From an uncultured bacterium (GTDB lineage: Bacteria > Zhuqueibacterota > QNDG01 > CAYUAG01): a DNA stretch of 64,000 nt. Position 1 is the stretch's first letter. The number at the start of each line of letters is the position of its first letter. Under the pieces are notes generated by a model. The model saw nothing but the letters and a program-made list of their open reading frames with translations. It was not told where the DNA came from and made no database searches. Position numbers and translations under genes: made by a program. The DNA lies in NCBI GenBank assembly GCA_964515295.1, contig CAZETW010000004.1, positions 4,994-68,993 on the forward strand, given 5' to 3'. Positions 38,612-59,809 of this stretch are shown in pieces.

Positions 38612-39873
38612 TGATAAAAAATAAAATTAGTGTTATCATTTTATTGATAATTTGTTCGTCTCTGCGGGCTGAAAGTATTCTTATTCCCATGGATCTGGAA
38701 CAGAATAATCACCTTAAAGCGTATGGAGCTGCTTACTGGACTCTAAAACAGGGTATAGATGTACGCTGGCTTCTGAATTACAGGGGCGGTTCTTTTCTCA
38801 TAGAGTCGGTAGAAACTGTAAAACGCAGATGCAGCATACTTGGCGTTTCATTTGAAATCATTTCCGGATCTGCAGTTACTTCTATCCTGCATACAATTGA
38901 AAATAACAATATGGAGGTAATTCTTCTGGAAAAGGCGCCCTCTATTGCTGTATATGTACCGCCCAATCATGTGCCCTGGGATGATGCTGTTACGTTATCT
39001 CTCACCTATGCTGAAATACCTTATGATAAAGTCTGGGATCAGGAAATTCTGGAGGGGAATCTATCACAGTATGACTGGCTTCATCTTCACCATGAAGATT
39101 TTACAGGTCAGTATGGTAAATTTTATGGATCATATCGGAATGCACCATGGTATATACAACAGCAGCAGCTGTATGAAAAAGAGGCCAAACGACTTGGATT
39201 TTCCAAAGTATCCGAACTAAAACTTTCTGTGGCTTTGAATATTAAAGAGTATATCCGTAAAGGAGGTTTTCTTTTTGCTATGTGTTCTGCAACAGATTCT
39301 TATGATATTGCTCTGGCAGCTCAGAATACGGATATCTGCGATGTGGTTTTTGACGGAGATCCTCTGGATCCTCATTATAAAGATAAACTGGATTTTACCC
39401 AGTGTCTTGCCTTTGAAAACTTTGAGCTTATCACTCAGCCGACAATCTATGAATATTCAAATGTTGATACAACCCCCCTGGACCAGACTGCAGTACAGAC
39501 CGGAAAAGATGATTATTTTACTCTTTTTGAATTTTCTGCCAAATATGATCCTGTACCGACAATGTTAACTCAGAATCATGTTTCAGTTATTCATAATTTT
39601 ATGGGACAGACTACTGCCTATAATAAAAATGTTATTAAAAAAGAGGTGGTGATAATAGCAGAAAAAAAAGGGGCTAATGAAGTTAAATATATCCATGGAA
39701 ATCATGGAAAAGGTACTTTTACTTTTCTGGGAGGACATGATCCGGAGGATTACAGACACTTTGTAGGTGATCCGCCTACTGATCTTAATCTTCATAAAAA
39801 TTCTCCGGGATATAGATTGATCTTAAATAATATATTATTTCCGGCAGCGAAAAAGAAAAAACTGAAAACATAA
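38611..39873 (+). CDS. Secreted hypothetical protein (possible class I glutamine-amidotransferase-like/ThuA-like fold)
   Basis: 420 aa; signal peptide; GGFLFAMCSATDSYD motif resembles a nucleophile-elbow Cys; translationally coupled to upstream TPR gene (stop/start overlap). Confidence 0.45.
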   Translation: MIKNKISVIILLIICSSLRAESILIPMDLEQNNHLKAYGAAYWTLKQGIDVRWLLNYRGGSFLIESVETVKRRCSILGVSFEIISGSAVTSILHTIENNNMEVILLEKAPSIAVYVPPNHVPWDDAVTLSLTYAEIPYDKVWDQEILEGNLSQYDWLHLHHEDFTGQYGKFYGSYRNAPWYIQQQQLYEKEAKRLGFSKVSELKLSVALNIKEYIRKGGFLFAMCSATDSYDIALAAQNTDICDVVFDGDPLDPHYKDKLDFTQCLAFENFELITQPTIYEYSNVDTTPLDQTAVQTGKDDYFTLFEFSAKYDPVPTMLTQNHVSVIHNFMGQTTAYNKNVIKKEVVIIAEKKGANEVKYIHGNHGKGTFTFLGGHDPEDYRHFVGDPPTDLNLHKNSPGYRLILNNILFPAAKKKKLKT

Positions 39874-41924: not shown

Positions 41925-42332
41925 TTAAAATTGAAGGTCCATAGCCCAGGTGGGGCAGGCAGTAATACATAATTCACAGGCCAGACATTGCGTGTCATCA
42001 AATTCAATTTTTCTGTTTACAGGATTTACTTTTAAGGCATCAGTAGGGCATACTCCCACACATAAACCGCAATGGGTGCACCTTTTTTTATCACGTACAA
42101 CATCTTTTTGAAGCGGCTTAATACTGAGTCCCAGTTTTTTCAGATAATCAAGACCGGATTTATAATCATTATTATTACCTTTTATCTCAAGAACAAGCAC
42201 TCCTTCTTCCTTTGGAGTTATAGCTGCTTTTAAAATATTAAATTCCAGATTATAATCTTTTACCAGCTGACATGCTATGGGCTGATCAACTAATGTTGGC
42301 GGAAATTTTACAACTATGCGTTTTGTAATCAT
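41925..42332 (-). CDS. NIL-domain ferredoxin with two [4Fe-4S] clusters
   Basis: 135 aa; N-terminal NIL domain, C-terminal CTHCGLCVGVCP and CLACELCITACP cluster motifs. Confidence 0.8.
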   Translation of the reverse strand: MITKRIVVKFPPTLVDQPIACQLVKDYNLEFNILKAAITPKEEGVLVLEIKGNNNDYKSGLDYLKKLGLSIKPLQKDVVRDKKRCTHCGLCVGVCPTDALKVNPVNRKIEFDDTQCLACELCITACPTWAMDLQF

Positions 42333-42381
42333 TAAGAACCCTTTTATATTTTTATAAATAAATCTGTAAATATAATTTCAT

Positions 42382-43551
42382 TTACTCTTTTTCTGAACCA
42401 GGAATGTAAGCAACCGGATTGGTTAACAAAAACTCTCCCTTTTTTATCCATTCTTTTAAGGATTCGGCGATTTCCACTGCTTTAGGATAGCTTGATAACG
42501 ATGCTGTTTTTATTCTTTTTTTATTTATTGTTATTTCTCCTGATTTTAGTTCTGCGTATGATACTGTTCCCAAAATTTTGTTTTTCCCCTGTGGATAATC
42601 ACTCCCGTAGTCCACAACCGGTGCGTAGATATCTTCATCTCTGACTGCTGTATACCTGGCCATTTGTTCGTTAATTATTGGTATGGGAATACCGATGCTC
42701 ACCATTAAGGTTGCTCCGTATCCTGACATGGACAGTCCCACAAGCCAGGAAGGTTTCATTTTCTTTAAATTACCGATGACTGCCAAAGTACCTGCCGGAA
42801 CCCGTGGGACCTGGCTTTTTGTCCTGGGTACATCGGGTTTATGCTGGGTCCCGGGCCATGCAATGTAACCTCGGTCACCTCCCAGGAAAATTTTGGTTCC
42901 GATCCCTATAGTCTGATATAGGGGATCATTCAGCAGGGGAGAGAGCTGTCCTGCTGAACAATAGGTAGCATTATTCATATTCGGTTTCAGCATACCCATA
43001 TATGTATAAATATTCTTGTCTGTACGGTTTACTGCCACGTTATAATTCTGATATGCATTCCTGGGATTAAATAACACAGCATCATTGACATTTTTAATAT
43101 TAATAATTGTTTCATATTTTCTCCCGGGATAGCAGTCAGTTCCATAAGAGTATGCACGGAGTTCTATATCTTTACCTGAAACAAAATCTTCAATAACATG
43201 TCCGCCGCCATATCTGAACTCACCGGGATGTATTTTATTTTTCGGATCATCTTCAGTAAGCTGAGAACAGCCGAGTAAAATGTCTGCTGCAGCAAATCCG
43301 GTATAAGCAGGAACATTATTCAGATAGCAAATTCCTCCGCCCAGTTTAATTTTTGGTTTTGACTGTGCAATGTTAAAATAAGCTCCACTGGAACACATGG
43401 GTCCGAATGTACCTGTAGTAACAACATCCACCTCCTCTGCTGCTGCCTTTGTACCGTTTTCCTTTACAATAGAAATCATTTCCTCAGCAGTAACAACAAC
43501 AGCTTCTTTTTTTTTGATTTTCTGGTTGATTTCTGCAATAGTCTTTGCCAT
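42382..43551 (-). CDS. DUF39 family protein (L-aspartate-semialdehyde sulfurtransferase-like; homocysteine biosynthesis), lacking CBS domains
   Basis: 389 aa; DUF39 family recalled from sequence features; paired with NIL-ferredoxin as in methanogen MA1821/MA1822. Confidence 0.6.
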   Translation of the reverse strand: MAKTIAEINQKIKKKEAVVVTAEEMISIVKENGTKAAAEEVDVVTTGTFGPMCSSGAYFNIAQSKPKIKLGGGICYLNNVPAYTGFAAADILLGCSQLTEDDPKNKIHPGEFRYGGGHVIEDFVSGKDIELRAYSYGTDCYPGRKYETIINIKNVNDAVLFNPRNAYQNYNVAVNRTDKNIYTYMGMLKPNMNNATYCSAGQLSPLLNDPLYQTIGIGTKIFLGGDRGYIAWPGTQHKPDVPRTKSQVPRVPAGTLAVIGNLKKMKPSWLVGLSMSGYGATLMVSIGIPIPIINEQMARYTAVRDEDIYAPVVDYGSDYPQGKNKILGTVSYAELKSGEITINKKRIKTASLSSYPKAVEIAESLKEWIKKGEFLLTNPVAYIPGSEKE

Positions 43552-43725: not shown

Positions 43726-46700
43726 CTATAGAACCTGTTTACGCAGAGTCTGCTGCATTCTTTTAATTCTTTCAAACAGGTCTCTTCTTTCCGGTGTTCG
43801 TTTTAATACTTCATTCCATTGAAAAACAGCCTTTTTATATTCCCCCCTGTTTGCATAAATTACTCCCAGATTTTCAGCAACTGTAAGATTATCAGGCTGT
43901 ACACGACGGACTTTATCATAGTAATATTCTGATTTATCTAAATTACCGATCTTGAAATAAGCATCTCCAAGATAATGCAGGGCATTTAAATTTGTGGGAT
44001 CTTCATTCAGAACTTTTTTAATCGCAATGATAGCTTTTTCATATGATCCCTGTTTATAAAACCATTTTCCGGATTTTAAAAAGCGCTGAATCCTTTTTTC
44101 TCTGATCCTTTTTTCTTCTTCCGGGTTTGGTTTTTTTTCTTCAGGTACTCTTTTTCTTTTTTGGACATCCAGGCCTTCTGACATCTTAAGAAAACTGGTT
44201 TCTTCCTCCTCTTGTTTATCTTTACCATATTCAATGTCTTCATGTTGTTCTTCATCCAGCAATTCATCTGCTGTAAAAGAAGCTATCTCTTCTTCTACAT
44301 CCTGTTCGTCAAAGACATCAGAGTAATATATATCTTTATGATCAAGTGTTTCTTCAATTTCCTCAAGTTCATCAATTTCTTCTTCACTTTCTTGCGGAAT
44401 TTCTTTTACAATATCCTGTTTTTGTTCTTCTTTTTCTTCAAGAGATTCAGCCGGCGCTTCCTCTTCTGATTCAGGAGTGATAATGTCTTCATCTTCAGAA
44501 CTGCCTATAAAATCATTTAAAATATGATCGGTTTTTTCGTGTATTTCACTTTCATGTTCAGAAATAACTTCTTCAGGTTCTTCAGAGATAACCTCTTCGA
44601 AATCTTTTTCTTCTTCTTTGATTACTTTTCTGTCTTCATCCTCAACGTCAACAGACTGCTCAACGATTGTAGGTTTATTAACAATTTTTCCGTCCAAGGT
44701 AACAAAAGGAGTACCTGGTTTCTTTAGAGCTTTGCGTCCGCCTTTTTCAATAAAAGCCAAACGTAATTCTTTGGTATTTAATTTGCTTTTTACTAATTCA
44801 TCGTAAATTCTTTTTTCATCAATTTCTACATTATCATATTTATCACTCTTTAATTCCTCACTAATTCTTTTTGCTCCATAATCAGGATTATTTTTAATAA
44901 TGTCGATAATTTTGGCTCTGTCTTCAATGCTTATATGTTTATCTTCAATTTTTGTAATTTTCCTTCCGTCATATAATCCTTCTTTTCCCTTTTTATTGTA
45001 TTTCTTTCTGTATTTATAATATGTTGAGGTAGAAACATTTTCCCTTTTACATGCTTCTTTAACACTTAATCCTTTTTTATCAACTAATTTCATCAACCGT
45101 AATCTGTGATTAAATAATACATCCTCAGCTTTCAATTTTTCTCTTATAGCCACCAGGGTAATATCATCAGTTTGCGCAAAACCTTCGGAAAAGATGATTA
45201 TTTCATCTCTGATCTTATTTACAAATGGTTCTACATTTAAGTCTCCATATTCTCTTATGACCGAAAGAAACCGTTCATCACCAAAGCGTTCTCTGTTGTG
45301 ATTCATGGCTTCGGTAATACCATCAGTATAGACGATCAGCGAATCTTCGGGTCTTAAATGCAGAGTGTCAGATTCAATTGTTTTATTAAACAGAGAATCA
45401 TCGGGCAGTTTAATTCCTATGGGAAATCCTTTCGGATTCAGGTAGTAACTTTTTTTGGTAGATCCTCTATAGAGAATCATGGGATTATGTCCGGCACTGG
45501 CGTAATTTATAGATCTTTTCTTGGAATCAAGAATTACATAAAATATAGTAACAAACATTCCGCGTTTCATATCTTTCATGACAAAACTGTTTACTTTAGC
45601 CAGTACATCAGCAGCATTTTTATTGCCGCGCGCTTCAGTACGAAGTGCTGTTCGGATCATGGTCATTACCAGGGAACCAGGAACTCCTTTACCTGAAACG
45701 TCTGCAACCACAATACCCAGAGTATCATTATCTACCTCCACAAAATCAAAGTAATCTCCGCCCACTTCTTTTGCTGCTTCATAGTATGTAGATATCTCAT
45801 ATCCTTCAATATCCGGAAAAGAAGCCGGGAGCAGTGTTTGCTGTATATCCTGGGCAACCTGTACTTCTTTTTGCAGTCTTTCCTGTTCTGCTAAATGTTC
45901 CTGAGTTTCACGAAATTTTTCTGTAATATCATTAAAAGCTTGAGCTATTTCGCCCACTTCATCTGAATTATCGAATTCCATCACATCTTCTGCTTCTCCC
46001 CGTCCCAAAGCTTTAACCCAGTGAGATAATTTTTTAAAAGGACTCATAGTAGTATATACAAGTACAAAAACTCCTATGCAGCCGCTTACTAATATAACCA
46101 AAGATCTCCAGAAAATACTTTTTCTCTTTTGTGCAACGTTACCGTCAACAAAGCTTTTATTCAACATGATATGGACTGAGCCTAAAATATACCTGTTATC
46201 ATCAATTTCAAATTCAGCGGGTTTATTTATGTCATATACACTGCCCACACCAGCATAGTCATATACATATAAACTATCAGATTTTTTTCTGTATTTTCGT
46301 GGGAGTGAAAATGGTTTTAACAGGTTCTCCATATTCACTGCACCCTGAATACTGCCAGTGCTGTCTACAATAATTATTTCTGAAACCAGTGGAGTATGAT
46401 TATGCTGTAATTCAGCTGAAATTCTTGCTAATTCCCAGGTTTCTTCATTAGCAAGAAATTCGGCGGAATTCTGCACTACAGTTGAAGCCAGTTTTTGTCC
46501 TTCTTCAAGATAGGTGTTAAATACTTTTTTCCCTTGATAAATATAATTCCAGATCGAGAATATTAGTATTAAAAAGGTTAATATACCAGAGGCAATCAAC
46601 GAATATCGGGTTTTCATGGAAAAGCTCAACTCTGGTATGGAAAATTTTTTGGAAACATCTAATTCACGAATTTTTGTCAGACGTAATTCATTTCCCTCTA

Positions 46701-47082
46701 CTGTTTTTCTATAGTCGATCTCATCAATGACCTTGCGCATTATAAATATTCCCAAACCGCCTTTTTTTCCGATATTCACATATCTGTCAAGGTCAGGATT
46801 TTTTACTTTTCTGGGATCAAAAGTTTTCCCCTGATCAATGAGAGAAACAGTAACATTCTGTTCTCTTATTATCATCCTGACTGTTATAAAACCTTCCCAG
46901 TCACGATAAGCATGACGGATTATATTTGTACCTGCTTCATCTATGGCCATTTTAAAGGCATTGATGATGTTTTCACTGACACCATATTTTCTGCCTACTT
47001 TGGTGATAAAATCACGCATTTCGCCCAGATTTCCAATATCAGCGGGTACTTTTAATTCTTTTTTCTTTACTTTTTTAAACAT
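43726..47082 (-). CDS. Multidomain signalling protein: RsbW-like GHKL serine kinase + 2 TM with extracytoplasmic sensor + HAMP + PP2C (RsbU/SpoIIE) phosphatase + transposase-type HTH + acidic tract + C-terminal TPRs
   Basis: 1118 aa; DEAGTNIIRHAY and GGLGIFIMRKVIDEI (HATPase_c_2); two TM helices; GDYFDF...TDGITEA...DDITLVAIR (PP2C-SIG); LSVKEACKRENVSTSTYYKYRKKY and PDYGAKRISEEL (IS481/IS3 OrfA-like HTH); E/D-rich region; 3 TPRs. Confidence 0.8.
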   Translation of the reverse strand: MFKKVKKKELKVPADIGNLGEMRDFITKVGRKYGVSENIINAFKMAIDEAGTNIIRHAYRDWEGFITVRMIIREQNVTVSLIDQGKTFDPRKVKNPDLDRYVNIGKKGGLGIFIMRKVIDEIDYRKTVEGNELRLTKIRELDVSKKFSIPELSFSMKTRYSLIASGILTFLILIFSIWNYIYQGKKVFNTYLEEGQKLASTVVQNSAEFLANEETWELARISAELQHNHTPLVSEIIIVDSTGSIQGAVNMENLLKPFSLPRKYRKKSDSLYVYDYAGVGSVYDINKPAEFEIDDNRYILGSVHIMLNKSFVDGNVAQKRKSIFWRSLVILVSGCIGVFVLVYTTMSPFKKLSHWVKALGRGEAEDVMEFDNSDEVGEIAQAFNDITEKFRETQEHLAEQERLQKEVQVAQDIQQTLLPASFPDIEGYEISTYYEAAKEVGGDYFDFVEVDNDTLGIVVADVSGKGVPGSLVMTMIRTALRTEARGNKNAADVLAKVNSFVMKDMKRGMFVTIFYVILDSKKRSINYASAGHNPMILYRGSTKKSYYLNPKGFPIGIKLPDDSLFNKTIESDTLHLRPEDSLIVYTDGITEAMNHNRERFGDERFLSVIREYGDLNVEPFVNKIRDEIIIFSEGFAQTDDITLVAIREKLKAEDVLFNHRLRLMKLVDKKGLSVKEACKRENVSTSTYYKYRKKYNKKGKEGLYDGRKITKIEDKHISIEDRAKIIDIIKNNPDYGAKRISEELKSDKYDNVEIDEKRIYDELVKSKLNTKELRLAFIEKGGRKALKKPGTPFVTLDGKIVNKPTIVEQSVDVEDEDRKVIKEEEKDFEEVISEEPEEVISEHESEIHEKTDHILNDFIGSSEDEDIITPESEEEAPAESLEEKEEQKQDIVKEIPQESEEEIDELEEIEETLDHKDIYYSDVFDEQDVEEEIASFTADELLDEEQHEDIEYGKDKQEEEETSFLKMSEGLDVQKRKRVPEEKKPNPEEEKRIREKRIQRFLKSGKWFYKQGSYEKAIIAIKKVLNEDPTNLNALHYLGDAYFKIGNLDKSEYYYDKVRRVQPDNLTVAENLGVIYANRGEYKKAVFQWNEVLKRTPERRDLFERIKRMQQTLRKQVL

Positions 47083-47097
47083 AAAATTTATTTATAA

Positions 47098-49008
47098 TTA
47101 TTTATTTTTACGGAATGATTTAATTTTGTTTTTCGCTCCTTCAATTGCCTTTAATAATTTAATATTATATGGATCCAATTGCAAGGCTTCTTCCCATCGC
47201 TCTAAAGCTTTTTTATAATGACCCTGTCTGTAAAGAATAATACCCTGATTAAACATTGTTCGTACTTCTTCTGTCATTTCCTGAGTTGCACCTTTAGCAT
47301 GGGCAAGAGCAGTTCTGTAGTAATTTTTTGCCTCACCGTGATCGGGCTGAATGTCCAGGGCTTTCCTGAAATATTGTACAGCAGAAGTGTAATTTTCTTC
47401 ATCAAAATATTCTTTACCTTTCTGGAAATTAGTGGCGAAATCTATACTCTTATTAAGACTATTAATCTGGTTTACGACTCTTCTATAAATTCTTTCATTA
47501 TCCCGGGATTGTTGCTTGGCCTGATTCAGTATATCATATGCTCTGGATACTTCTCCCTGGTTTATTAATTTTTGTGCTCTAGTAAGTGATATATTGATCT
47601 GGTTTACTAAATTATCCTCAGCATTTTTTATGTATTTTTTCAGTTTGGTATTCTGGGGATCTCTTTCCAGGCCTTCTTCCCATTTTTCTATTGCTTCACG
47701 ATAATTTCTATTTTCCAGCGCTTCAATACCTTCAGTTAATTTTTTATGAACAAATGTGCTGTCTTTTCTGTTACTTACTTTTACTCTCTCCTTTTCAAGA
47801 AGCTGATTTTGCTCTCTTTCTTCGGCTAAACGCTGTCTTTCTATTGCTTCCTGTAATAATTCTTGTGCTTTTTTGTTGTCTTCATCTATTTTAAGTATTT
47901 TTGAAAATTCAACTCTGGCATTATAGAAATCACCTTTTTCAAGATAAGATCTACCGTTTTGAAGACTTTCATTGATTTCTCTTAATCTTTCAGCCTGTAC
48001 TCTCTCATTAAACCTTCTTTGTATCTCTAAACGTCGTTTTTCTTCTAAAAGTTCCTTTTGTTCCTCAATAGTCTTTCCAAAATATAATTTCAAGGAAAAC
48101 AGATTACTAACAGGGAAATATTTTGCATCTCCTATAGATTTAATACCATAATCAATTTGCAGATTTTTAAAAAGCAGCCCCACACCTGCGGTTAACTGTT
48201 CTTTCTCATATCCTCCTCGTATAAAGACCATGTTGCCTAATCCCACCTCCATTCCGAAATGATATTCATTTTCTTTGAATTCAGAATGATCAATATCAGC
48301 CATTAGTAATAAATAGTATTTATTGCTGAAAGTGAATATTTTTGCCATTCCGGCTTTAATTTTATAGGGAAGTATATCCTGCTCAGTGTCCATTTTTAAA
48401 CTCGGTTGTAAGAGATTATACATAGTACATCCGAAATGAAGATCATTTAATATGTTTCTGCTGGTTATCCCATAGTGAATTCCGGCATCCAGACCAAATC
48501 CGTTAGCAGAATACTCTCCTAACTCATCTCTGTAAGCATTACCGTTTATACCTACTGAAAACCCTTTAAAGAGTGTAAGGGCATATGATAGGGTTAATTT
48601 AGCTTTCCAGAAGTTAAATGTTCCTCTGTCAACGGGAATATTATTTACATCGTCATAAAAATTTATATCATCAACCCCAAATCGTGCTATTCCAAAACCG
48701 AATGTTCCAATATTTAAAGTCGGATGAATATATCCGATTTGATGATACTGTACTCCTTCAAATAAAGTAAAGAGAGAGAACCCAAGCTGTTTTTGCTGTA
48801 CTACATTCATGCCAGCCGGATTCCAGGCAAAGGCATAGGCATCATTTGGATATGCTGCTGCAGCGTTCCCCATACTTAATTGCTTTGCTCCGGAACCAAT
48901 TCGCAAAAACAAAGATTCTGCTCCTGCATTACCTTGTTTCTGTTGAGCAAAACATGTACCGGCTATTATAAAAATTATTAGAAAAAATTTTATAATTTTA
49001 CTGTTCAT
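47098..49008 (-). CDS. Outer-membrane FadL/PorV-like beta-barrel fused to C-terminal TPR/coiled-coil domain
   Basis: 636 aa; signal peptide; N-terminal motif GSGAKQLSMGNAAAAYPNDAYAFAWNPAGM characteristic of FadL/PorV superfamily; alternating-hydrophobic beta strands; C-terminal half helical TPR-like. Confidence 0.6.
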   Translation of the reverse strand: MNSKIIKFFLIIFIIAGTCFAQQKQGNAGAESLFLRIGSGAKQLSMGNAAAAYPNDAYAFAWNPAGMNVVQQKQLGFSLFTLFEGVQYHQIGYIHPTLNIGTFGFGIARFGVDDINFYDDVNNIPVDRGTFNFWKAKLTLSYALTLFKGFSVGINGNAYRDELGEYSANGFGLDAGIHYGITSRNILNDLHFGCTMYNLLQPSLKMDTEQDILPYKIKAGMAKIFTFSNKYYLLLMADIDHSEFKENEYHFGMEVGLGNMVFIRGGYEKEQLTAGVGLLFKNLQIDYGIKSIGDAKYFPVSNLFSLKLYFGKTIEEQKELLEEKRRLEIQRRFNERVQAERLREINESLQNGRSYLEKGDFYNARVEFSKILKIDEDNKKAQELLQEAIERQRLAEEREQNQLLEKERVKVSNRKDSTFVHKKLTEGIEALENRNYREAIEKWEEGLERDPQNTKLKKYIKNAEDNLVNQINISLTRAQKLINQGEVSRAYDILNQAKQQSRDNERIYRRVVNQINSLNKSIDFATNFQKGKEYFDEENYTSAVQYFRKALDIQPDHGEAKNYYRTALAHAKGATQEMTEEVRTMFNQGIILYRQGHYKKALERWEEALQLDPYNIKLLKAIEGAKNKIKSFRKNK

Positions 49009-52000
49009 CTATTTTACCACAGCAATTTTTGTTTTTACTATATTGTCGTCTGTATCCATAACCAATATATATACACCGTTAAGTACTGTGTTTCCATTAT
49101 CATTGGTGCCGTTCCATTCAACCTGATTACTCCCCCTTGAATGAAGTCCTTTTCTTCCTTCCGGATCAGTACTGCTGAAAGATTCTGACCAGACTAATTC
49201 TCCGATTAAATTATAAATGCTGAAATTTACATTTGTATCCTTGTCTAAATAGTAAACAATGGTTGTAGTTTTTTTACCCGGTGAACCGAATGGATTGGGA
49301 AAATTCAGTAGATATGCTTTATCGTCTGTTCCCACATCTTCACTTGATATCACCTGTTTTTGCCAGTTGCTCTTTAACTCAAATCTATCTCCTGAAGGAG
49401 ATAACACCGGCAGTGAAACATAAGGGACATACTCATCAACAGCTGTAATATAGGTGCTGTCAGGCATTTCCAGCATAAAATTCACTGTCTTTTCTGTTGT
49501 ATGCATGTCTGCAAGGAGAGCGATTTTCAGTGTATCCTGAGTCTTAATCGGGTTCATATGATCAATTAAAATGTTAACCGGATTTTCGGCAGGTATTTGT
49601 GATGAAGACAGTGTAGCCAGACAGCTGTCTTTATTATAATAATATCTTCCATTCTTCTTTATTAATTTGCATAGTTTGATTTTCTTATAAATAGAAGAAG
49701 GATTTAATGGCTGGTGAGAAAAGTCTAGAAGATTAAATTTTATTTTTGTCAGTAATACTCCATTCGCACCTGCTTCACCTCTGTTGATCATTTCAAATCC
49801 TGTTAGCCAGACATTATTTTGCCCGCTTATTACTTGACTTGAAATAGAATCCGGCTGGTCTAATTCTGTAACGGAAAGCCAGGTTCCCACTGTTGTTACC
49901 CCGATATCTGCACTTACTTTACTTGCATATGCTTCTTCAGATGTATTCTGATCCCAGGGAATTTTTGAAATATAAGCTGAGATAGTGGCAGTTTCGCCTG
50001 TGGAGTAGGGAGGTGCTTTAATCATCCAGTTTGTTTTTTCCTGTGTCGCATAATGAACCGGAGATTCTTTTGTTGTATATCCTTCAGGTAATTGTTCCAG
50101 AGTAATCATAGCAGTACCAAGAGTATCAGCTTCTCCTTTGTTTTCTATCTCTGCATACAGGATAAATTCCTGAGAGGGAGAAACAGATTTGTCATCAATG
50201 TTAAGGTTCAATGCCAGATCAGCTTTTTTTACAGTTTGTATCTCAATACCTTTCTGTTCTGCAGATATTATTACATCCTCTTGCTGAAGTGCATCGTAGC
50301 CGGATGCATTTACATAAATAGTTCTTTTATCTGTTGCTCCTTTGGGCGCTCTGATTTGCCAGGTTACTTCATTTGATATCACTTTTTTATCCAGGTTATC
50401 CGAGGTGGTATATCCGGTTGGCAATGTTATGGAGGCAGTGATATCCCTTACATAATTCCAGGTCAGACTTGCTCTTACTACAAAATACTGATCGGATGAT
50501 ACTTTTTGATTAACTGCTCCGGGCGGTGAGGCTATACCCAATGAACTGGTAAGAAAACTTTTATGAGTTATTACAGATATTTTTTCTGTCTTTTTTTCAA
50601 TTTTTGCAACTTGTCCGGTGTTTCTGGCTAAAGGAGGTTTATACAGAGTAACATTTATTGTTTGCCAGTCTGTGGCAATATTGGGCGATTTGATTTCCCA
50701 GGTTGCAGGTGAATTAAGAGTAATGGAATTATTAACTGATCCGCTGAGTGTATAGGGAGAAGGAAGAGTTATTCTTATTTTTCCGGTAGTATCAATAGCA
50801 CCAGATCCATGATTTTCCAGATGTGCGGTGAGGATAAAAACCTGGTTGGTTGTAAATTCTCCTATGGGATTGCTTAATTTCAGTTTTATTGAGAGGTCTG
50901 CCGGTTTCTGAATATAAGCAAAAGCTACAGGATCTAAAGCCGGACCAACAGGTACCTCTGAATCATCCTTTTTGGCACTTGTTATAGAAGCAGTAAATTG
51001 TTCTCCGGAAATATTTTCCACTGCTGATGCGGTAAGGTAAAATATTACAGAATCTCTTTGGGATGGTGACAGAGAAAGTATGGTTAAATCTGAATTTTCT
51101 ATATTTGATATTTCGCTTTCCAAATGAACATTAATATTCTTGACTGCATGACCTAATCCGTTTTCTACTGATACAATAACTTTAAATTCCTGGTTTGTAT
51201 CCAAATACGCATTGCCTCCCTCGGTTGTATTATAAGCATCGATCACAGTTGATACAATTCTAAAGGCCGGATTGGACTGCACTGATATTAAGGCTGATGC
51301 ATTATTCTGTTTTATGTTTCCGGTGTTTTTTTCAACTCCCTGGATATTGGTTTTAACTTCTACCTCTCCGCCGTATAGTCCGGTTAGTTTAACTTTGTAT
51401 ACTAATGTATCCCTTGTTCCGCTTTTCAGGCTGATATTTTTGGTGGTACATTCTGTAATATAATCTGTGAGTTTTAGATCTTCATGCCAGAAACTGATAT
51501 TTGATTTCAGGGTATCTATCTGAATTTCTGCATAATAATCTATAGGGGCCTGACTTTGCCCGTTAGCAAGTACAACTTTAACAAACCAGGGTTCAGTCTG
51601 ACCTCCCATTACTTTATTTGTGGAAGTGATAATTTTTTCAATGGACAGAGTTCCTGGCTGTTGTACATGTACTTTGGTTGTGTCATCAACAGGATTTTTA
51701 CTTGTCAGAGAATCATTCTTATTATCAGTCCATCCGCCGCCGCTTACTGTAAAGATTTCATTGTACAGATAGGTTTGAAAGGCATTACCTGTTACTGTGA
51801 TAACAGAAGTTTCACCGCCCTCAAGAGGATCAACAGGGATACGGGTAGGGAAATTAAACCAGGGATGTTCTGAAGTTAAATGTAATCCGATGTCATGTAA
51901 TCCATCTCCGCCTGTATTGGCTATTTTAATGTTCATGTCAAATTCCTGATTGATATTAACATAGGGTGCATTGGGAGCCATATTTGTAAGTTCGAGAATT

Positions 52001-55000
52001 TTTAATTCCGCTTCTTCTTCAATAATTACTGTTCCCCATCCTGCATTATCAGTGTTGTCAGAAACCTGTAATTCTGTATTTATTTCAGTACCTGAAACAG
52101 AGGCGTTTATTTTACATTCTCCAGTGCTGTTTTCTCCTGTATGAATAACCTGATAGTTCAGACTGTCGATAGTTTCACCTTCAAGAATCCATCCTCCTTT
52201 AGCAAGAGAATCCGGTCGTATTACTGCCCAATTATCTCCAATACTGAAAGAAAGAGAAGTGTTTACAGCAGCCGAAACAGAATCAATCAACACACTGCTT
52301 TCACCCCGGTTACTCAGTACTACTGCTATTGACCAGTTTGTGTCCTGAGCAACTGTTACTTCATTCTGGGAGGTGATGATTTCATTGACAATCAAATCAG
52401 CCGGCGTCTGTACATTAACTGAAGTCCAGGCTTGATCAGTTAATTGTTCACCAGCGATAGTGGAAGTATATAAAAATCCCTGTATGAGTGCTGAGCCTTT
52501 ATCCGCACCGGTACTGTCTATGGTTACAACTAATGTATCTGTAGAATAACCGGATAATATTTTTGTACCACTATTCTTAAATGTATCAGGAATTGATATT
52601 TGATAATCATTTTTCAGTATCCCGTCAGTTTTTATATTTAACCCGATACTGTCAAGAGTAACATTGTTGCTGCTCAGGTTTTCCACAGTCATAATAAGGA
52701 ACCAGTCTTTGTTTTGATTTGCAGTTATATGCTGTACAAGAGTAGAGTAATCATTTTTTACCGGTTTAAAATCCAAAATTCTCAGCCCCGGTGCATTTAT
52801 AACATTAAAACTATTAGAAACTCCACTGGGTGCAGGTTCCTCTGCACCTGTTTCTGTAACTGTAATAACATTACCTGAGTATTGGGTGTTCACTGTAACG
52901 CTTCCATTCCATATACCGTTAACAAAATTCGAACTTTTTTGCGGTTGTATAGTAGCGGAAGAATCAGTGATATCAACAGTACCGGTAAAATTGGATTTGA
53001 CATTATCATTTTCATCATAGGTAGTGATATTTAACGGAAACGGCTGACCTGTTACCTGAGTATTGATCAAGCCTATTTCAAAATAAGACACTTGTCCGGG
53101 AATAACTATAATGGAACCGGTATGAGCTGATATATCAGTTTGTGGTTTATGTGTCTTTATATTGCCGCTTCCCGGTTTACTGGGGATATAGGTGATGTCA
53201 GATTTATTTGAGATGTTAACTGCAGGAGTTAATCCCTGGGAACTCCAATCTACAATTTCAGTTCCTCTGAAGTTTCCATAGCCGTCATATCCTACAGAAT
53301 AAAGATCCAGACTTTCTCCTACACTTAAGGTGTCGTTAATTATTTCTTCTCCTTCATGAATAGGAACATTTTTTATCTTAAGCTGAGACAGAGTTCCTGG
53401 ATTTACTAAAATATCACTCACAACAGAAGAAATATCGTTTACCTGGCCTTTCAGCGCAACTCCGCTTTCTGCTTTTACTAATATCTGATTAGCCTGCCCT
53501 GAACCGTTTATCACCTGAATATCATTGAAAATCGGAGACGACCCATTGGGAGAATTCCCTCCCAGATTATTACAGGTTACAGTAACCATACCTGACCAAT
53601 TATTCTGATATTTATCCTGTGCATCAGTTAGTGTTAAGGGAAATGGTATTCCTGCCGTTTGAATTGAGCCGCAATTCAAGGCAAATGTGTCTATGGAAGC
53701 ATACGTGACCGTAATACTGCTGCTGGTCTTACTTATTTCTCCATCAGTAACAGTTACGGTTTGTTGGGGGGAATTATATAAAATAAAAGATGAACCGAAG
53801 AATACTTTTTGTCCGTTATTCCATCCGGTTCCGTTATCAACCGGCAGTGTTGCCGGATATGGTTCTTTATCTGAAGAACTCCAGATAATAATTCCTTCAT
53901 AATCGGTTTTTTTATTTTTATAGCTGTCAAATGCAGTTACCGTAACCCCGTAGGAGAAAGGCTGTCCGGCACGCCTGGTTTCAGGTAATCCTTCTATAGT
54001 AAAATCACCAAGTTCGCCAGGGAGGACCAGGATTGAATGACTGGTTCTGCTTACTGTCCCGTCAATTACTTTGATTGTCTGGGAGGGTGCATTAAATAAA
54101 AGAAAAGAAGAACCACTAAACGTTTTGCTTCCATTTACCCAGCCTGTTCTGTCATCTGTAGGTAATGCTGCAGGGTAAGGAGTGCCGTCAGAAGAATTCC
54201 AGATAACAATTCCGGAATAATTAGTTTTTAAATTATTATATTCATCAAAAGCAGAGACGGTAACATTACTATTGAATTGCTGACCTGCAATAGTACTGGA
54301 TGGAACTCCGCTTAACTCAAATCTGTCAAGATCTGTTGCATATACAGTAATCGGATCTGATGTTTCGATGACGCTCCCGTCCTGAACTGTAACAGTTTGT
54401 TCAGTGGTATTGTAGAGTTTAAATGAAGTTCCCGGAAAAGTCTTTTTTCCCCCACTCCATCCGGTTCCGTCATCTTCCGGAAGATCAGCAGGATATGGAA
54501 TACCGTCACTGGATACCCAGTCCACTGTACCCTGGTAGTCATTTTTGACATTTCCATAAAAATCATAAGCAGTAATTTCAATATCATTGTTAAAAACAGA
54601 ACCTGCTTCAACGCTGCCGGGGATTCCGCTTATCTTAAAACTATCAAGCGCTGCCGGTTCAACTGTTACATTATATGTAGTACTGGTTATAGAGCCATCT
54701 GATACAGAAAGCCATTGAGTACCTGCTGTACATAATTTGAATAGGGCACCACTGAATTTTTTTGATCCGTTATTCCATTCACTGCCGTCATCAGTGGGAA
54801 GTAAGACTTTTTCGTTAGTATCAGATGTATGCCAGGTGACAGTACCGTTATATGTATCTTCAATTTGCCCGTATTGATTATAGGCAGTCACTTCAATACT
54901 GTCAGGGAACTGCTGGCCTGCTTGAACAGTAGCTGGTACATTTGTTAGCTCCAATCTGGCTAAAGTCCCGGCATTTGTTTCAGGTGCTTTTAAAGGGTGA

Positions 55001-55098
55001 TTAACTTGTGCCCCCAACGTTTTATTGACATAAAAATTAAGTGTCACCCCCGAAAGGAATACTGCGGTCAAAAAGATTTTTTTCAAGGATATATTCAT
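49009..55098 (-). CDS. Giant secreted repeat protein with T9SS (Por) C-terminal sorting domain
   Basis: 2029 aa; signal peptide; at least 4.5 tandem ~105-aa repeats near N-terminus; C-terminal ~90 aa NFPNPFGSPG...IYNLIGELV...GVYILVM...KIAVVK matches T9SS CTD. Confidence 0.85.
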   Translation of the reverse strand: MNISLKKIFLTAVFLSGVTLNFYVNKTLGAQVNHPLKAPETNAGTLARLELTNVPATVQAGQQFPDSIEVTAYNQYGQIEDTYNGTVTWHTSDTNEKVLLPTDDGSEWNNGSKKFSGALFKLCTAGTQWLSVSDGSITSTTYNVTVEPAALDSFKISGIPGSVEAGSVFNNDIEITAYDFYGNVKNDYQGTVDWVSSDGIPYPADLPEDDGTGWSGGKKTFPGTSFKLYNTTEQTVTVQDGSVIETSDPITVYATDLDRFELSGVPSSTIAGQQFNSNVTVSAFDEYNNLKTNYSGIVIWNSSDGTPYPAALPTDDRTGWVNGSKTFSGSSFLLFNAPSQTIKVIDGTVSRTSHSILVLPGELGDFTIEGLPETRRAGQPFSYGVTVTAFDSYKNKKTDYEGIIIWSSSDKEPYPATLPVDNGTGWNNGQKVFFGSSFILYNSPQQTVTVTDGEISKTSSSITVTYASIDTFALNCGSIQTAGIPFPLTLTDAQDKYQNNWSGMVTVTCNNLGGNSPNGSSPIFNDIQVINGSGQANQILVKAESGVALKGQVNDISSVVSDILVNPGTLSQLKIKNVPIHEGEEIINDTLSVGESLDLYSVGYDGYGNFRGTEIVDWSSQGLTPAVNISNKSDITYIPSKPGSGNIKTHKPQTDISAHTGSIIVIPGQVSYFEIGLINTQVTGQPFPLNITTYDENDNVKSNFTGTVDITDSSATIQPQKSSNFVNGIWNGSVTVNTQYSGNVITVTETGAEEPAPSGVSNSFNVINAPGLRILDFKPVKNDYSTLVQHITANQNKDWFLIMTVENLSSNNVTLDSIGLNIKTDGILKNDYQISIPDTFKNSGTKILSGYSTDTLVVTIDSTGADKGSALIQGFLYTSTIAGEQLTDQAWTSVNVQTPADLIVNEIITSQNEVTVAQDTNWSIAVVLSNRGESSVLIDSVSAAVNTSLSFSIGDNWAVIRPDSLAKGGWILEGETIDSLNYQVIHTGENSTGECKINASVSGTEINTELQVSDNTDNAGWGTVIIEEEAELKILELTNMAPNAPYVNINQEFDMNIKIANTGGDGLHDIGLHLTSEHPWFNFPTRIPVDPLEGGETSVITVTGNAFQTYLYNEIFTVSGGGWTDNKNDSLTSKNPVDDTTKVHVQQPGTLSIEKIITSTNKVMGGQTEPWFVKVVLANGQSQAPIDYYAEIQIDTLKSNISFWHEDLKLTDYITECTTKNISLKSGTRDTLVYKVKLTGLYGGEVEVKTNIQGVEKNTGNIKQNNASALISVQSNPAFRIVSTVIDAYNTTEGGNAYLDTNQEFKVIVSVENGLGHAVKNINVHLESEISNIENSDLTILSLSPSQRDSVIFYLTASAVENISGEQFTASITSAKKDDSEVPVGPALDPVAFAYIQKPADLSIKLKLSNPIGEFTTNQVFILTAHLENHGSGAIDTTGKIRITLPSPYTLSGSVNNSITLNSPATWEIKSPNIATDWQTINVTLYKPPLARNTGQVAKIEKKTEKISVITHKSFLTSSLGIASPPGAVNQKVSSDQYFVVRASLTWNYVRDITASITLPTGYTTSDNLDKKVISNEVTWQIRAPKGATDKRTIYVNASGYDALQQEDVIISAEQKGIEIQTVKKADLALNLNIDDKSVSPSQEFILYAEIENKGEADTLGTAMITLEQLPEGYTTKESPVHYATQEKTNWMIKAPPYSTGETATISAYISKIPWDQNTSEEAYASKVSADIGVTTVGTWLSVTELDQPDSISSQVISGQNNVWLTGFEMINRGEAGANGVLLTKIKFNLLDFSHQPLNPSSIYKKIKLCKLIKKNGRYYYNKDSCLATLSSSQIPAENPVNILIDHMNPIKTQDTLKIALLADMHTTEKTVNFMLEMPDSTYITAVDEYVPYVSLPVLSPSGDRFELKSNWQKQVISSEDVGTDDKAYLLNFPNPFGSPGKKTTTIVYYLDKDTNVNFSIYNLIGELVWSESFSSTDPEGRKGLHSRGSNQVEWNGTNDNGNTVLNGVYILVMDTDDNIVKTKIAVVK
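53570..54966 (-). repeat. Tandem ~310-bp coding repeats (~105-aa units) inside the giant T9SS cargo gene
   Basis: Protein-level repeats LxxFxIxGxPxxxxAGQxF...VTAxDxYGNxKxxYxGxVxWxSSD...LPxDxGTGWxxGxKxFxGxSFxLxNxxxQTVTVxDG...TSxxITV observed four to five times. Confidence 0.7.
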
Positions 55099-57499: not shown

Positions 57500-58777
57500 T
57501 TAAGATCTTAAGGTTAAATCTATCACAAACTTAATAGTTTCACCTTTGAAGTCTTTAACATTTACAGGGGTAATAATCATTTTGTCTACACTATATTTAC
57601 CACTGTTTCTCAATAATATGGTTAGATATGTTATTAAGTTATTACTATTCCCTTCAACATTAATACGTACCGGAATGGTAGTTTCACCGGATTGTGTATT
57701 TGCTGGAAAGGTCTTACTATCTTTAAATACTAAAGAATTATTTTGTGCTGTTCTTTGCAACCATTGTTGTAATAATTGAGCTGAATTAAAATTTTTAGCT
57801 GAAACGGGCTGACTTATTACCGAACCAGGTAATTCTCCGGAAATTACTCCCCAGTATCGCATCTCTCCATTAGTCCTAAAGCCATCTTCCGGAGATGTCT
57901 CATATTTTCCGGTATTGAAAATTGTTTTAATTTTCTCTGCCATTTCACCAGAAACATTAGGCTGTAATGAGGCATATCCGGCTCTGAAGTATTTATCTTT
58001 AATATCGATAATGATAGTACCAAGACAGTTGTTCTGAGAAAAATAGTTGATCAGAGAACCTGTGTTTTTTGCTAATTCAGTAGTTTGTATTGCTGTGCCA
58101 GGAGCACTTACTTTTTCTGTTGTTTCACCTGGTTTGACGGGTTGTTTTTCTGAATCAGGAGCAGTTACTCCGGTACTGGATGTAGTGTCTTTTTTCCCTG
58201 CAGCTAATTGCTTACGTTGCTGTTCAATCAATTCCTCAATATCAGGTTTTTCCGGAATATTATTTTGTATATCCCTGAGAGCTTCAACTTTTGGTTTATA
58301 CACAAATTGATATCCCAGCGCAACTATCACTACAATCCCCAATAGTATTAACAGAAATGGAGAGACACCTTTTTTCTTTACTTCACCATAGGTATAATCT
58401 TCATCTTTACTATCTTTAGCAGGTCCTTCCAAGTCAGGAATTTCTTCTTCGTTGTCTAACTCGTCATCTAAAAATTCTTCATCATCTAAAGAAGATACAT
58501 CGTCCAATTCACTGTCAATATCTTTATCAATATCAGATCCGGTGTCTTCGTCTAATCCGTCTTCAAATTCATCGTCTAAATCCAAATCCATATTTTGATT
58601 TTTATTGAAATCTCCACCAAGTTTTTCCTCATCGTTAAAACTTAATTTCTCATCAAAATCACCACCTAAATCCTCTTTGTCTTCTTGAGAATCATCCCTT
58701 GCATTTTTTTCTTTTTTTCCTTTTTCCTCTTCCTTTTCCTCTTCATCATCATCTTTAAAAAGATTAATGTCTACCAT
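57500..58777 (-). CDS. PilN-like inner-membrane protein with long acidic cytoplasmic insertion
   Basis: 425 aa; N-terminal MVDINLF resembles the PilN INLLP PilM-binding motif; ~130-aa D/E-rich tract; single TM; ~270-aa periplasmic domain. Confidence 0.45.
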   Translation of the reverse strand: MVDINLFKDDDEEEKEEEKGKKEKNARDDSQEDKEDLGGDFDEKLSFNDEEKLGGDFNKNQNMDLDLDDEFEDGLDEDTGSDIDKDIDSELDDVSSLDDEEFLDDELDNEEEIPDLEGPAKDSKDEDYTYGEVKKKGVSPFLLILLGIVVIVALGYQFVYKPKVEALRDIQNNIPEKPDIEELIEQQRKQLAAGKKDTTSSTGVTAPDSEKQPVKPGETTEKVSAPGTAIQTTELAKNTGSLINYFSQNNCLGTIIIDIKDKYFRAGYASLQPNVSGEMAEKIKTIFNTGKYETSPEDGFRTNGEMRYWGVISGELPGSVISQPVSAKNFNSAQLLQQWLQRTAQNNSLVFKDSKTFPANTQSGETTIPVRINVEGNSNNLITYLTILLRNSGKYSVDKMIITPVNVKDFKGETIKFVIDLTLRS

Positions 58778-58837
58778 GATATAATTCCTCCCTTAAATTC
58801 TCAATAATGTAACCCCTCTTCCTCATTCCTAAAAATT

Positions 58838-59788: not shown

Positions 59789-59809
59789 TTAAATATTTTT
59801 TTATGACCT

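What the first reader, a model, noticed from the sequence alone, without database searches (positions are those of the whole stretch)
47098..49008. FadL/PorV-like outer-membrane beta-barrel fused to a ~320-residue periplasmic TPR/coiled-coil domain
The N-terminus carries the hallmark G-x-x-x-x-M-G-x-A-x-A...D-A-x-A...W-N-P-A-G motif of the FadL/PorV superfamily, followed by amphipathic beta-strand periodicity for about 300 residues. The C-terminal half is all-helical with TPR-like repeats and K/E/R-rich coiled coil. PorV-type shuttles are not normally fused to TPR domains. The fusion would place a protein-interaction scaffold in the periplasm directly under the barrel, next to the TPR tail of the downstream signalling protein.
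Basis: partly seen in the sequence, partly recalled or inferred. Interest (0 to 1): 0.6.

Follow-up and report, generated by a model that had tools for sequence, protein, structure and literature searches.

The report
PorV-like barrel with periplasmic TPR arm
This gene encodes an outer-membrane barrel of the PorV/PorQ secretion-carrier family carrying a long helical arm in the periplasm; across several uncultivated phyla it sits between a giant surface protein and a membrane-bound signalling phosphatase, which hints at an undescribed link between surface-protein display and signalling.

Summary
Window 47098-49008 (-) is a 636-aa ORF with three parts:
- a Sec signal peptide;
- a 325-aa all-helical tail with five spaced TPR units.

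The tail starts exactly where stand-alone relatives end, so it should be periplasmic.

The fusion is not a one-off. At least 138 of the 149 newly found best-scoring representative clusters (50% identity) have barrel then TPR, always in that order. Labelled members come from KSB1, Calditrichota and GN15 MAGs.

The gene order is conserved. A giant protein ending in a T9SS type-A-like CTD comes first, then the PorV-TPR gene, then a two-pass membrane HAMP-PP2C phosphatase (SiaA/RsbU-like, here fused to an RsbW-like kinase). The phosphatase gene follows 27 of 31 tailed loci. Two others are followed by a HAMP histidine kinase and two by neither. It is found near none of 25 tail-less loci.

Most likely the barrel is the dedicated carrier or anchor for the giant protein, and the tail couples it to the sensor's periplasmic loop. 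That is inferred, not shown.

I rate this a new variant of a known kind.

The parts
47098..49008 (-). Whole ORF, 636 aa plus stop: PorV/PorQ-family barrel fused to a TPR tail
   Evidence: 21 full-length orthologues at 36-81% identity.
48946..49008 (-). Sec signal peptide, aa 1-21, with likely cleavage after C-F-A
   Evidence: Read directly from the sequence. Hydrophobic segment 1-23. AF2 helix 2-19 followed by a low-confidence linker.
48799..48921 (-). Conserved N-terminal segment, aa 30-70, carrying the G..MG.A.A / DA.A / WNPAG motif. It corresponds to the FadL/PorV N-terminal in-barrel ('hatch') region.
   Evidence: Invariant columns. Short helices at 33-69 in the model. That it sits inside the barrel is inferred from the FadL/PorV fold match.
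48076..48798 (-). Beta-barrel strands, aa 71-311, ending in the beta-signal-like last strand NLFSLKLYF
47101..48075 (-). All-helical C-terminal tail, aa 312-636, predicted periplasmic
   Evidence: Helices 314-635. TPR_2 78.8 bits and TPR_1 55.7 bits. The tail is nearly as conserved as the barrel: 32-82% identity against 38-85%.
47857..47976 (-). TPR-like unit 1, aa ~345-384, preceded by a 30-residue charged helix
   Evidence: Fis1_TPR_C/TPR-type hits at 352-405. Helix pair 314-358 and 361-374.
47638..47748 (-). TPR-like unit 2, aa ~421-457
   Evidence: TPR_16 at 424-453. Helices 379-432 and 436-449.
47479..47589 (-). TPR-like unit 3, aa ~474-510 (degenerate)
   Evidence: ANAPC3 at 476-502. Helices 454-483 and 487-500.
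47329..47436 (-). TPR unit 4, aa ~525-560
   Evidence: TPR_1 at 529-557 and TPR_8 at 527-557.
47155..47262 (-). TPR unit 5, aa ~583-618
   Evidence: TPR_2 at 584-615 and TPR_14 at 591-620.
49009..55098 (-). Upstream gene: 2029-aa secreted giant protein. Its stop codon TAG abuts the ATG of the PorV-TPR gene.
   Evidence: Orthologues lie directly upstream of the fusion in the fusion loci whose upstream sequence is held, most with whole-protein matches and the most distant ones (L022, L024) matching only in the CTD. Four tandem repeats of about 106 aa at aa 60-410.
49012..49341 (-). C-terminal domain of the giant protein (last ~110 aa): T9SS type-A-like sorting domain
   Evidence: TIGR04183 30.1 bits (cutoff 23) when scanned alone. 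It also matches the CTDs of PorU and PorZ. The profile hits the PorU 6za2 and PorZ 5m11 CTDs and FlgD Ig domains.
43726..47082 (-). Downstream gene, 15 nt after the fusion: 1118-aa membrane signalling protein. Order of domains: RsbW-like kinase, TM, loop, TM, HAMP, PP2C (SpoIIE), HTH, acidic linker, TPR.
   Evidence: SpoIIE 165 bits, HATPase_c_2 92 bits, HAMP; SiaA model E 1e-16. TM segments at 158-182 and 322-349.
46120..46536 (-). Predicted periplasmic loop (aa 183-321) of the signalling protein. It is the only part of that protein the tail could touch.
   Evidence: Topology is inferred from the two TM segments and the cytoplasmic nature of the HATPase, HAMP and PP2C domains. Conserved in orthologues. 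No recognisable family or solved relative.

Best explanation
The protein is a Sec-exported outer-membrane protein in two parts.

The N-terminal ~280 residues form a FadL-fold barrel of the PorV/PorQ family. This is shown by profile and fold matches.

The C-terminal 325 residues form an elongated helical arm of five spaced TPR units. The arm hangs from the periplasmic end of the last strand. The structure is predicted; the location is inferred from topology.

The gene is the middle one of a conserved three-gene unit.

Inferred mechanism:
1. The upstream giant protein is exported with a T9SS type-A-like C-terminal domain.
2. The barrel acts as that protein's dedicated carrier or surface anchor by binding this domain. 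PorV and PorQ bind cargo, PorU and PorZ CTDs in the same way, and SprF-type shuttles are likewise encoded next to their own cargo.
3. The periplasmic TPR arm docks the barrel onto the periplasmic loop of the co-encoded two-pass HAMP-PP2C phosphatase. The state of the surface protein (exported, loaded or strained) is thereby passed to a cytoplasmic partner-switching (RsbU/RsbW/STAS, SiaABC-like) output.

Step 3 is the least certain.
For: Family and fold:
- PorV_fam 116 bits against a cutoff of 90.
- A profile of the orthologues hits PorV 6h3i_F at E 5.5e-8.

Tail position:
- Stand-alone relatives end at aligned positions 310-324, right after the shared last strand.

Cargo pairing:
- The stop codon of the giant gene abuts the start codon of this gene.
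- A homologous CTD ends between a 4-nt overlap and about 130 nt upstream of the PorV-like gene in all fusion loci and in many tail-less loci.
- 28 of 30 such CTDs match TIGR04183 and the PorU CTD.
- Cognate shuttle-cargo gene pairs are established for type B CTDs (PMC12618676).

Link to the sensor:
- An HMM of the HAMP-PP2C region finds a gene immediately downstream in 25 of the 31 tailed loci. Two more (L006, L010) are cut off inside the first 78-122 residues of that gene, which one search detects, giving 27 of 31.
- A HAMP histidine kinase takes its place in L024 and L028.
- There is no HAMP-PP2C hit within +-10 kb in 25 tail-less loci.
- The sensor varies in form: a fused RsbW-HAMP-PP2C, separate HAMP-PP2C plus RsbW plus STAS genes, or a histidine kinase. 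In the forms checked for topology (TM segments in the window's protein; a Cache domain before HAMP in the L024 kinase) it is a membrane protein with an extracytoplasmic segment before HAMP.
- In two Bacteroidia MAGs the barrel and a small signal-peptide-bearing TPR protein are separate adjacent genes.

Precedent for a TPR element beside PorV in the periplasm:
- SprE/PorW and SkpA contact the translocon near PorV (PMC10994853).
Against: - No T9SS core gene (SprA/Sov, PorK/L/M/N, PorU) lies in this 64-kb window. Whether the genome has one could not be checked.
- The barrel fails the equivalog cutoffs for PorV (45.8 against 250), PorQ (69 against 220) and PorV2 (83 against 325), and Pfam PorV (22.6 against 27).
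- It is shorter than PorV, so the CTD-binding loops may differ.
- Two tailed lineages (L054, L055) have no sensor next door.
- In this window no STAS partner is adjacent.
- A mirror-tree test gave a tail versus sensor-loop partial correlation of r 0.40 (p 0.003). The physically impossible pair, tail versus cytoplasmic RsbW domain, scored r 0.45, so the test is uninformative.
- No physical contact has been modelled or measured.
Confidence: 0.45

Rival explanations
1. Cargo-specific carrier or anchor only. The barrel serves the giant CTD protein as above. The TPR arm is a structural docking or assembly element: it would tether the barrel to the T9SS periplasmic scaffold, to peptidoglycan or to a chaperone, playing in cis the role SprE/PorW or the small TPR proteins play in trans. 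On this reading the neighbouring phosphatase merely regulates the operon and never touches the arm.
For: - TPR lipoprotein SprE and SkpA sit at the periplasmic face next to PorV in the solved extended translocon (PMC10994853).
- A split arrangement, barrel plus a separate small periplasmic TPR protein with no sensor nearby, occurs in L040 and L050.
- Tailed members L054 and L055 lack a sensor neighbour.
- Other tail-less loci carry a conserved lipoprotein as third gene instead.
Against: It does not explain why a membrane HAMP sensor follows 29 of 31 tailed loci and none of 25 tail-less loci, nor why two unrelated output types (PP2C and histidine kinase) fill that slot.
Confidence: 0.3
2. FadL-type uptake channel. 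The barrel imports a hydrophobic small molecule by lateral diffusion, the TPR arm hands it to periplasmic partners, and the link to the giant protein is incidental.
Against: - PorV is the best match by every measure.
- The gene is translationally abutted to a CTD-bearing protein across phyla.
- No lipid or aromatic catabolism genes are conserved around it.
Confidence: 0.05
3. BAM accessory subunit. The protein is a BamG-like FadL-fold barrel that, with a BamD-like TPR arm, helps insert or assemble outer-membrane or surface proteins.
Against: - It scores lower than PorV and FadL.
- No bamA or bamD is nearby.
- The TPR hits are generic.
- The specific cargo-CTD neighbourhood argues for a dedicated partner rather than a general machine.
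Confidence: 0.05

Closest known systems
PorV (T9SS outer-membrane carrier/shuttle; F. johnsoniae 6H3I/8GL6 chain F; P. gingivalis PorV/LptO)
   Different: - It has a 325-aa periplasmic TPR tail that PorV lacks.
- Its barrel is shorter.
- It fails the PorV equivalog cutoff (45.8 against 250).
- It appears dedicated to one neighbouring cargo, whereas PorV is a general carrier for all type A substrates (PMC12618676).
- The host lies outside Bacteroidota.
PorQ (outer-membrane partner of PorZ in the P. gingivalis attachment complex)
   Same: It belongs to the same subfamily model. PorQ is the second-best equivalog hit (69 bits here, 99 bits in L024). From established knowledge, PorQ holds one specific CTD protein, PorZ, at the surface. 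That is the behaviour proposed here, and the giant protein's CTD resembles the PorZ and PorU CTDs.
   Different: It scores below the PorQ cutoff (220). It carries the TPR tail. No PorZ or PorU homologue is nearby.
PorP/SprF-type specialised shuttles encoded next to their type B CTD cargo (SprB-SprF)
   Same: The genetic logic is the same: a very large surface protein gene is immediately followed by the gene for its own outer-membrane barrel partner (PMC12618676, PMC9143113).
   Different: It belongs to a different barrel family, PorV/PorQ rather than PorP/SprF; only a marginal PorP_SprF hit was seen, in L024. The CTD is type-A-like, not type B. It has the TPR tail.
SprE/PorW (TPR lipoprotein of the extended T9SS translocon) and small periplasmic TPR proteins
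   Same: Both place a periplasmic TPR scaffold beside a PorV-type barrel (PMC10994853). In L040 and L050 such a TPR protein is a separate gene directly after the barrel gene.
   Different: Here the TPR element is covalently fused to the barrel's C-terminus. There is no specific sequence relationship to SprE/PorW beyond generic TPR similarity.
SiaABCD and RsbU/RsbV/RsbW partner-switching modules (these resemble the neighbouring gene, not the fusion itself)
   Same: The downstream protein has a HAMP plus PP2C core that matches the SiaA model (E 1e-16), together with an RsbW-like kinase. Related loci add STAS proteins and, in two cases, GGDEF and Wza/Wzc genes. This parallels SiaA-SiaB-SiaC-SiaD control of aggregation (PMC7647112, PMC8457831).
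   Different: No known Sia or Rsb system is tied to an outer-membrane barrel or a T9SS-type cargo. Here kinase and phosphatase are fused in one membrane protein that also carries HTH and TPR domains.
Barrel-TPR outer-membrane proteins PgaA, BcsC, PelB and Slam
   Different: In those proteins the TPR domain comes before a C-terminal barrel of a different fold. Here the order is reversed, with the barrel first and its beta-signal internal, and the barrel is FadL/PorV-type.

Membership tests
PorV/PorQ family (NCBIfam NF033709, subfamily level) | Whole-protein score at or above the curated cutoff of 90 bits | tested here: met
   116 bits over aa 34-291. Orthologues L021 and L024 score 141 and 187 bits.
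PorV/PorQ family | 14-stranded FadL-type outer-membrane barrel with an N-terminal in-barrel segment | tested here: met
PorV proper (NF033710 equivalog; Pfam PF19572) | Score at or above the equivalog cutoff (250 bits) or the Pfam gathering score (27 bits) | tested here: not met
   45.8 bits and 22.6 bits respectively.
PorQ (NF033711 equivalog) | Score at or above 220 bits | tested here: not met
   69 bits.
PorV2 (NF052325 equivalog) | Score at or above 325 bits | tested here: not met
   83.4 bits. The tail-less relatives tested also fail, at 74-112 bits.
T9SS carrier/shuttle (functional class) | Binds the C-terminal sorting domain of T9SS cargo through its extracellular loops | not testable with these tools
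   The support is indirect only: a type-A-like CTD protein is encoded immediately upstream in all fusion loci and in many tail-less loci.
T9SS carrier/shuttle (functional class) | The genome encodes the T9SS translocon and motor (SprA/Sov, PorK/L/M/N, PorU) | not testable with these tools
   None lies in this 64-kb window. The rest of the genome is not available.
FadL/TodX outer-membrane transport family (Pfam PF03349) | Significant match to the Toluene_X profile | tested here: not met
   The window protein has no hit at E <= 0.1. Only the GN15 orthologue gives a sub-threshold 26.6 bits against 29.7. The fold-level similarity is real.
TPR repeat proteins (Pfam TPR_1/TPR_2) | Repeats scoring above the gathering thresholds, with helix-turn-helix pairs | tested here: met
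   TPR_2 78.8 bits (cutoff 27), TPR_1 55.7 bits (cutoff 27.8). Paired helices in the model. The spacing of 49-73 aa between units is longer than the canonical 34.
Coiled coil | Heptad-based oligomerising helices | not tested
   Only long charged helices (314-358, 379-432) are predicted. No coiled-coil or oligomer prediction was run.

The most novel reading that the evidence does not exclude
The three genes form an undescribed trans-envelope signalling device. A giant T9SS-type surface protein is held by its own PorV-like barrel. The barrel's periplasmic TPR arm reports the occupancy or mechanical state of that protein to the periplasmic loop of a HAMP-PP2C phosphatase. This drives a partner-switching output (STAS, HTH, and in some lineages GGDEF and polysaccharide export). 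In effect it would be a surface-contact or adhesin-load sensor built from a secretion carrier, spread across KSB1, Calditrichota, GN15 and related uncultivated phyla.
Probability: 0.3. Interest if true: 0.8.

Novelty: new variant of a known kind. Interest (0 to 1): 0.6.

Why it matters
PorV-type barrels are currently understood as free carriers that pick up T9SS cargo at the translocon in Bacteroidota.

This family shows three things:
- In several other, mostly uncultivated phyla, a PorV/PorQ-like barrel is hard-wired to one giant cargo gene.
- The barrel carries its own periplasmic protein-interaction arm.
- That arm co-occurs almost perfectly with a membrane phosphatase or kinase sensor.

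If the arm really talks to the sensor, this would be a new way for diderm bacteria to pass information from a surface protein across the outer membrane. It would be conceptually comparable to TonB-dependent transducers, but built on secretion hardware. It would also connect T9SS-type display to partner-switching and c-di-GMP or exopolysaccharide control.

Even on the conservative reading, the family extends the cargo-specific shuttle idea from type B CTD/PorP-SprF pairs to type-A-like CTD/PorV-like pairs, and to hosts outside Bacteroidota.

Tried and rejected
- A homologue search with the tail alone (aa 313-636) returned nothing, not even the protein itself. I treat this as a limitation of the word index on a TPR-rich, charged query. 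The full-profile search and local HMMs replaced it.
- The AFDB50 fold library was unavailable.
- A single-sequence AF2 model of the sensor's periplasmic loop was useless, with pLDDT 33. A 15-sequence profile of that loop found no solved relative, so its fold remains unknown.
- A mirror-tree / partial Mantel test of co-evolution between the tail and the sensor loop looked positive (r 0.40, p 0.003). The impossible control pair, tail versus the cytoplasmic RsbW domain, was just as strong (r 0.45). I reject it as evidence.
- I looked for a STAS partner and for the 374-aa TPR gene seen in KSB1 loci. Neither is in this window.
- I looked for T9SS core genes in the window. None is present; the neighbours are housekeeping genes.
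- Literature searches found no description of a PorV-TPR fusion, of T9SS in KSB1 or Calditrichota, or of a partner-switching link.
- The promoter and terminator scan was no better than shuffled sequence.
- The organism could not be named.
Full report
**What is there**

Window 47098-49008 (minus strand) is a single 636-aa ORF. It opens with a typical Sec signal peptide, MNSKIIKFFLIIFIIAGTCFA|QQ. The hydrophobic segment runs from 1 to 23 and AF2 places a helix at 2-19. Orthologues have no conserved lipobox cysteine.

It is among the most conserved parts of the family. F34, G38, N63 and P64 stay invariant even when 26 stand-alone PorV-family proteins are added to the alignment.

**The barrel**

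- NCBIfam's PorV/PorQ subfamily model scores 116 bits over aa 34-291, against a cutoff of 90.
- The equivalog models are not reached: PorV 45.8 against 250, PorQ 69 against 220, PorV2 83 against 325. Pfam PorV is just below threshold at 22.6 against 27.
- A profile of the 21 orthologues hits the solved F. johnsoniae PorV (6h3i_F) at E 5.5e-8.
- An AF2 model built on 47 sequences has mean pLDDT 84.3, with strand segments from 73 to 310.
- Foldseek ranks PorV 8gl6_F and 6h3i_F first (E 8e-11 and 9e-10), then FadL and TodX.

The N-terminal half is therefore a FadL-superfamily barrel closest to PorV. It belongs to the family only at the broad PorV/PorQ level.

**The tail**

Residues 314-635 are entirely helical in the model. 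They carry significant TPR matches: TPR_2 78.8 bits and TPR_1 55.7 bits.

Read against the model, the tail consists of five TPR-like hairpins, at about aa 345-384, 421-457, 474-510, 525-560 and 583-618. Long helices join them, so the units lie 49-73 residues apart instead of the canonical 34. Oligomerisation was not tested.

Across orthologues the tail is almost as conserved as the barrel (32-82% against 38-85% identity). It has no large indels, and total length stays at 624-650 aa.

**Where the tail sits**

Stand-alone PorV-family relatives end at aligned positions 310-324, immediately after the shared last-strand motif YS(N/H)xFSLK. The C-terminal strand of an outer-membrane barrel ends at the periplasmic face; this is established OMP topology, and FadL and PorV have 14 strands with both termini periplasmic. 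The tail should therefore be periplasmic. This is an inference, because I could not inspect coordinates.

**How common the fusion is**

The first homologue search found 21 full-length orthologues (36-81% identity) and then a gap to 350-400-aa stand-alone proteins.

An exhaustive profile search of 1.84 billion cluster representatives returned 150 best hits down to E 4e-61. Local HMMs for barrel and tail show that 138 of the 149 new ones contain both, always barrel first. A few are 1100-1440 aa, with more TPRs.

Named sources include candidate division KSB1, Calditrichota and GN15 MAGs. Two MAGs are labelled Clostridia, which is probably a mislabel.

It does not hold for sequence space at large.

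**The gene neighbourhood**

This is the most informative result.

*Upstream.* A 2029-aa secreted protein lies directly upstream, and its TAG stop abuts the ATG of this gene. Its last ~110 residues, scanned alone, pass the T9SS type A sorting-domain model (TIGR04183, 30.1 bits against 23). They also match the CTDs of PorU and PorZ. A profile of 30 such CTDs hits the PorU (6za2) and PorZ (5m11) CTDs and FlgD Ig domains in the PDB.

A homologous CTD ends between a 4-nt overlap and about 130 nt upstream of the PorV-like gene. This holds in every fusion locus and also in many loci with tail-less PorV-like genes from Bacteroidota-type MAGs. It resembles the established cargo-next-to-its-own-shuttle arrangement of type B CTD proteins and PorP/SprF barrels (PMC12618676, PMC9143113). 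Here, though, it involves a type-A-like CTD and a PorV/PorQ-like barrel.

*Downstream.* An 1118-aa protein starts 15 nt downstream. Its domains, in order, are:
- an RsbW-like HATPase_c_2 domain;
- two TM segments (158-182 and 322-349);
- HAMP;
- a SpoIIE/PP2C phosphatase (165 bits), whose HAMP-PP2C core also matches the SiaA model at E 1e-16;
- an HTH;
- an acidic linker;
- three TPRs.

An HMM of its HAMP-PP2C region finds a gene immediately downstream of the fusion in 25 of the 31 tailed loci held. Two more (L006, L010) are cut off inside the start of that gene, which one search detects. These loci include Calditrichota, GN15 and four deeply divergent metagenomic members. In two of those four (L053, L056), phosphatase, RsbW-like kinase and STAS are separate genes. 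In the other two (L052, L057), a fused RsbW-HAMP-PP2C is followed by GGDEF and Wza/Wzc-type genes.

Two further tailed loci carry a HAMP histidine kinase in that position; in L024 it has a periplasmic Cache domain. Two tailed loci have neither. None of 25 tail-less loci has a HAMP-PP2C hit within +-10 kb.

In two Bacteroidia MAGs the tail-less barrel is instead followed by a separate small TPR protein with a signal peptide, which is a split form of the fusion.

**Interpretation**

- *Shown:* the domain architecture, the family and fold, the conservation and the gene linkage.
- *Inferred, moderately strong:* the barrel is the dedicated carrier or anchor of the upstream giant protein through its CTD.
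- *Inferred, weaker:* the TPR arm contacts the sensor's periplasmic loop (aa 183-321) and so couples the state of the surface protein to a partner-switching output, analogous in output to SiaABCD (PMC7647112, PMC8457831).

That cannot be right, because that tail follows HAMP and PP2C and must be cytoplasmic.

The main rival is that the arm only docks the barrel to periplasmic T9SS scaffolding. SprE/PorW and SkpA sit beside PorV in this way in the extended translocon (PMC10994853). On that reading the sensor merely regulates the operon. FadL-like uptake and BamG-like roles are structurally possible but fit the neighbourhood poorly.

**Weak points**

- No T9SS core genes lie in the window, and the genome could not be searched.
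- No STAS gene is adjacent here.
- The co-evolution test was non-specific.
- The fold of the sensor loop is unknown.
- No literature describes this architecture or module.

**Verdict**

The protein is a new variant of a known kind: a PorV/PorQ-family barrel with a fused periplasmic TPR arm. It belongs to a large uncharacterised family with a conserved and suggestive cargo-barrel-sensor gene order.

Noticed in passing
window 49009-55098 (-), aa 60-410: The giant upstream protein has four tandem repeats of about 106 aa sharing the motif AGQ.F....(I/V).(I/V)TA(Y/F)D.Y.N....Y.G.V.W.SSD. Apart from the C-terminal sorting domain it matches no Pfam or NCBIfam family. It is T/S/N-rich and has only 7 Cys.
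   Followed up: partly
window 43726-47082 (-), aa ~650-1118: After its PP2C domain the signalling protein carries a transposase-type HTH (HTH_23/HTH_32, with IS481/IS630-like hits), a ~200-aa highly acidic low-complexity linker and three TPRs. The STAS proteins in KSB1 and Calditrichales loci (L003, L004, L021) end in a segment that aligns to this HTH region.
   Followed up: partly
L029, L033, L034, L036, L047 (gene after the tail-less PorV-like gene): In these tail-less loci the third gene is a homologous family of 265-300-aa predicted lipoproteins with no Pfam match. This suggests a general unit of giant CTD protein, PorV-like barrel and periplasmic or outer-membrane partner.
   Followed up: partly
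L052 8041-13018 and L057 11001-15332: In two divergent fusion loci the sensor is followed by GGDEF, Poly_export (Wza-like) and Wzz/GNVR genes. L052 additionally has a ParA-like ATPase and a STAS gene. This points to c-di-GMP or exopolysaccharide output in those lineages.
   Followed up: no
L024, L028, L035, L036: MAGs labelled Clostridia (L024, L028) and Alphaproteobacteria (L035, L036) carry PorV-like outer-membrane barrels next to proteins with T9SS-type CTDs. The taxonomic labels or the binning are probably wrong.
   Followed up: no
L003-L005 (1615-2822): KSB1 loci have an extra ~374-aa TPR protein gene upstream of the giant gene and a STAS gene after the sensor. Both are missing from this window, where phosphotransacetylase and HcyBio/ferredoxin genes flank the trio.
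   Followed up: yes
window 36791-39873 (+): A 606-aa TPR protein with a weak, far sub-threshold PorW/SprE match (43.7 bits against a cutoff of 250) is followed by a 420-aa protein with no family match. It is too weak to call a T9SS component.
   Followed up: partly
window 57500-61558 (-): A PilM-like gene (58838-59788) is flanked by two proteins of 425 and 582 aa with no family match, next to a ComEA-like gene. This may be a type IV pilus or competence cluster.
   Followed up: no
window 41925-43551 (-): A NIL-ferredoxin gene and an HcyBio (methanogenesis-marker-16-like) gene lie immediately downstream of the trio. They form a homocysteine-biosynthesis-type pair and are not conserved with the trio in other lineages.
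   Followed up: no
tool behaviour: The word-indexed homologue search with the tail alone (324 aa) returned no hit at E <= 1e-5, not even the identical parent protein that is in the database.
   Followed up: partly
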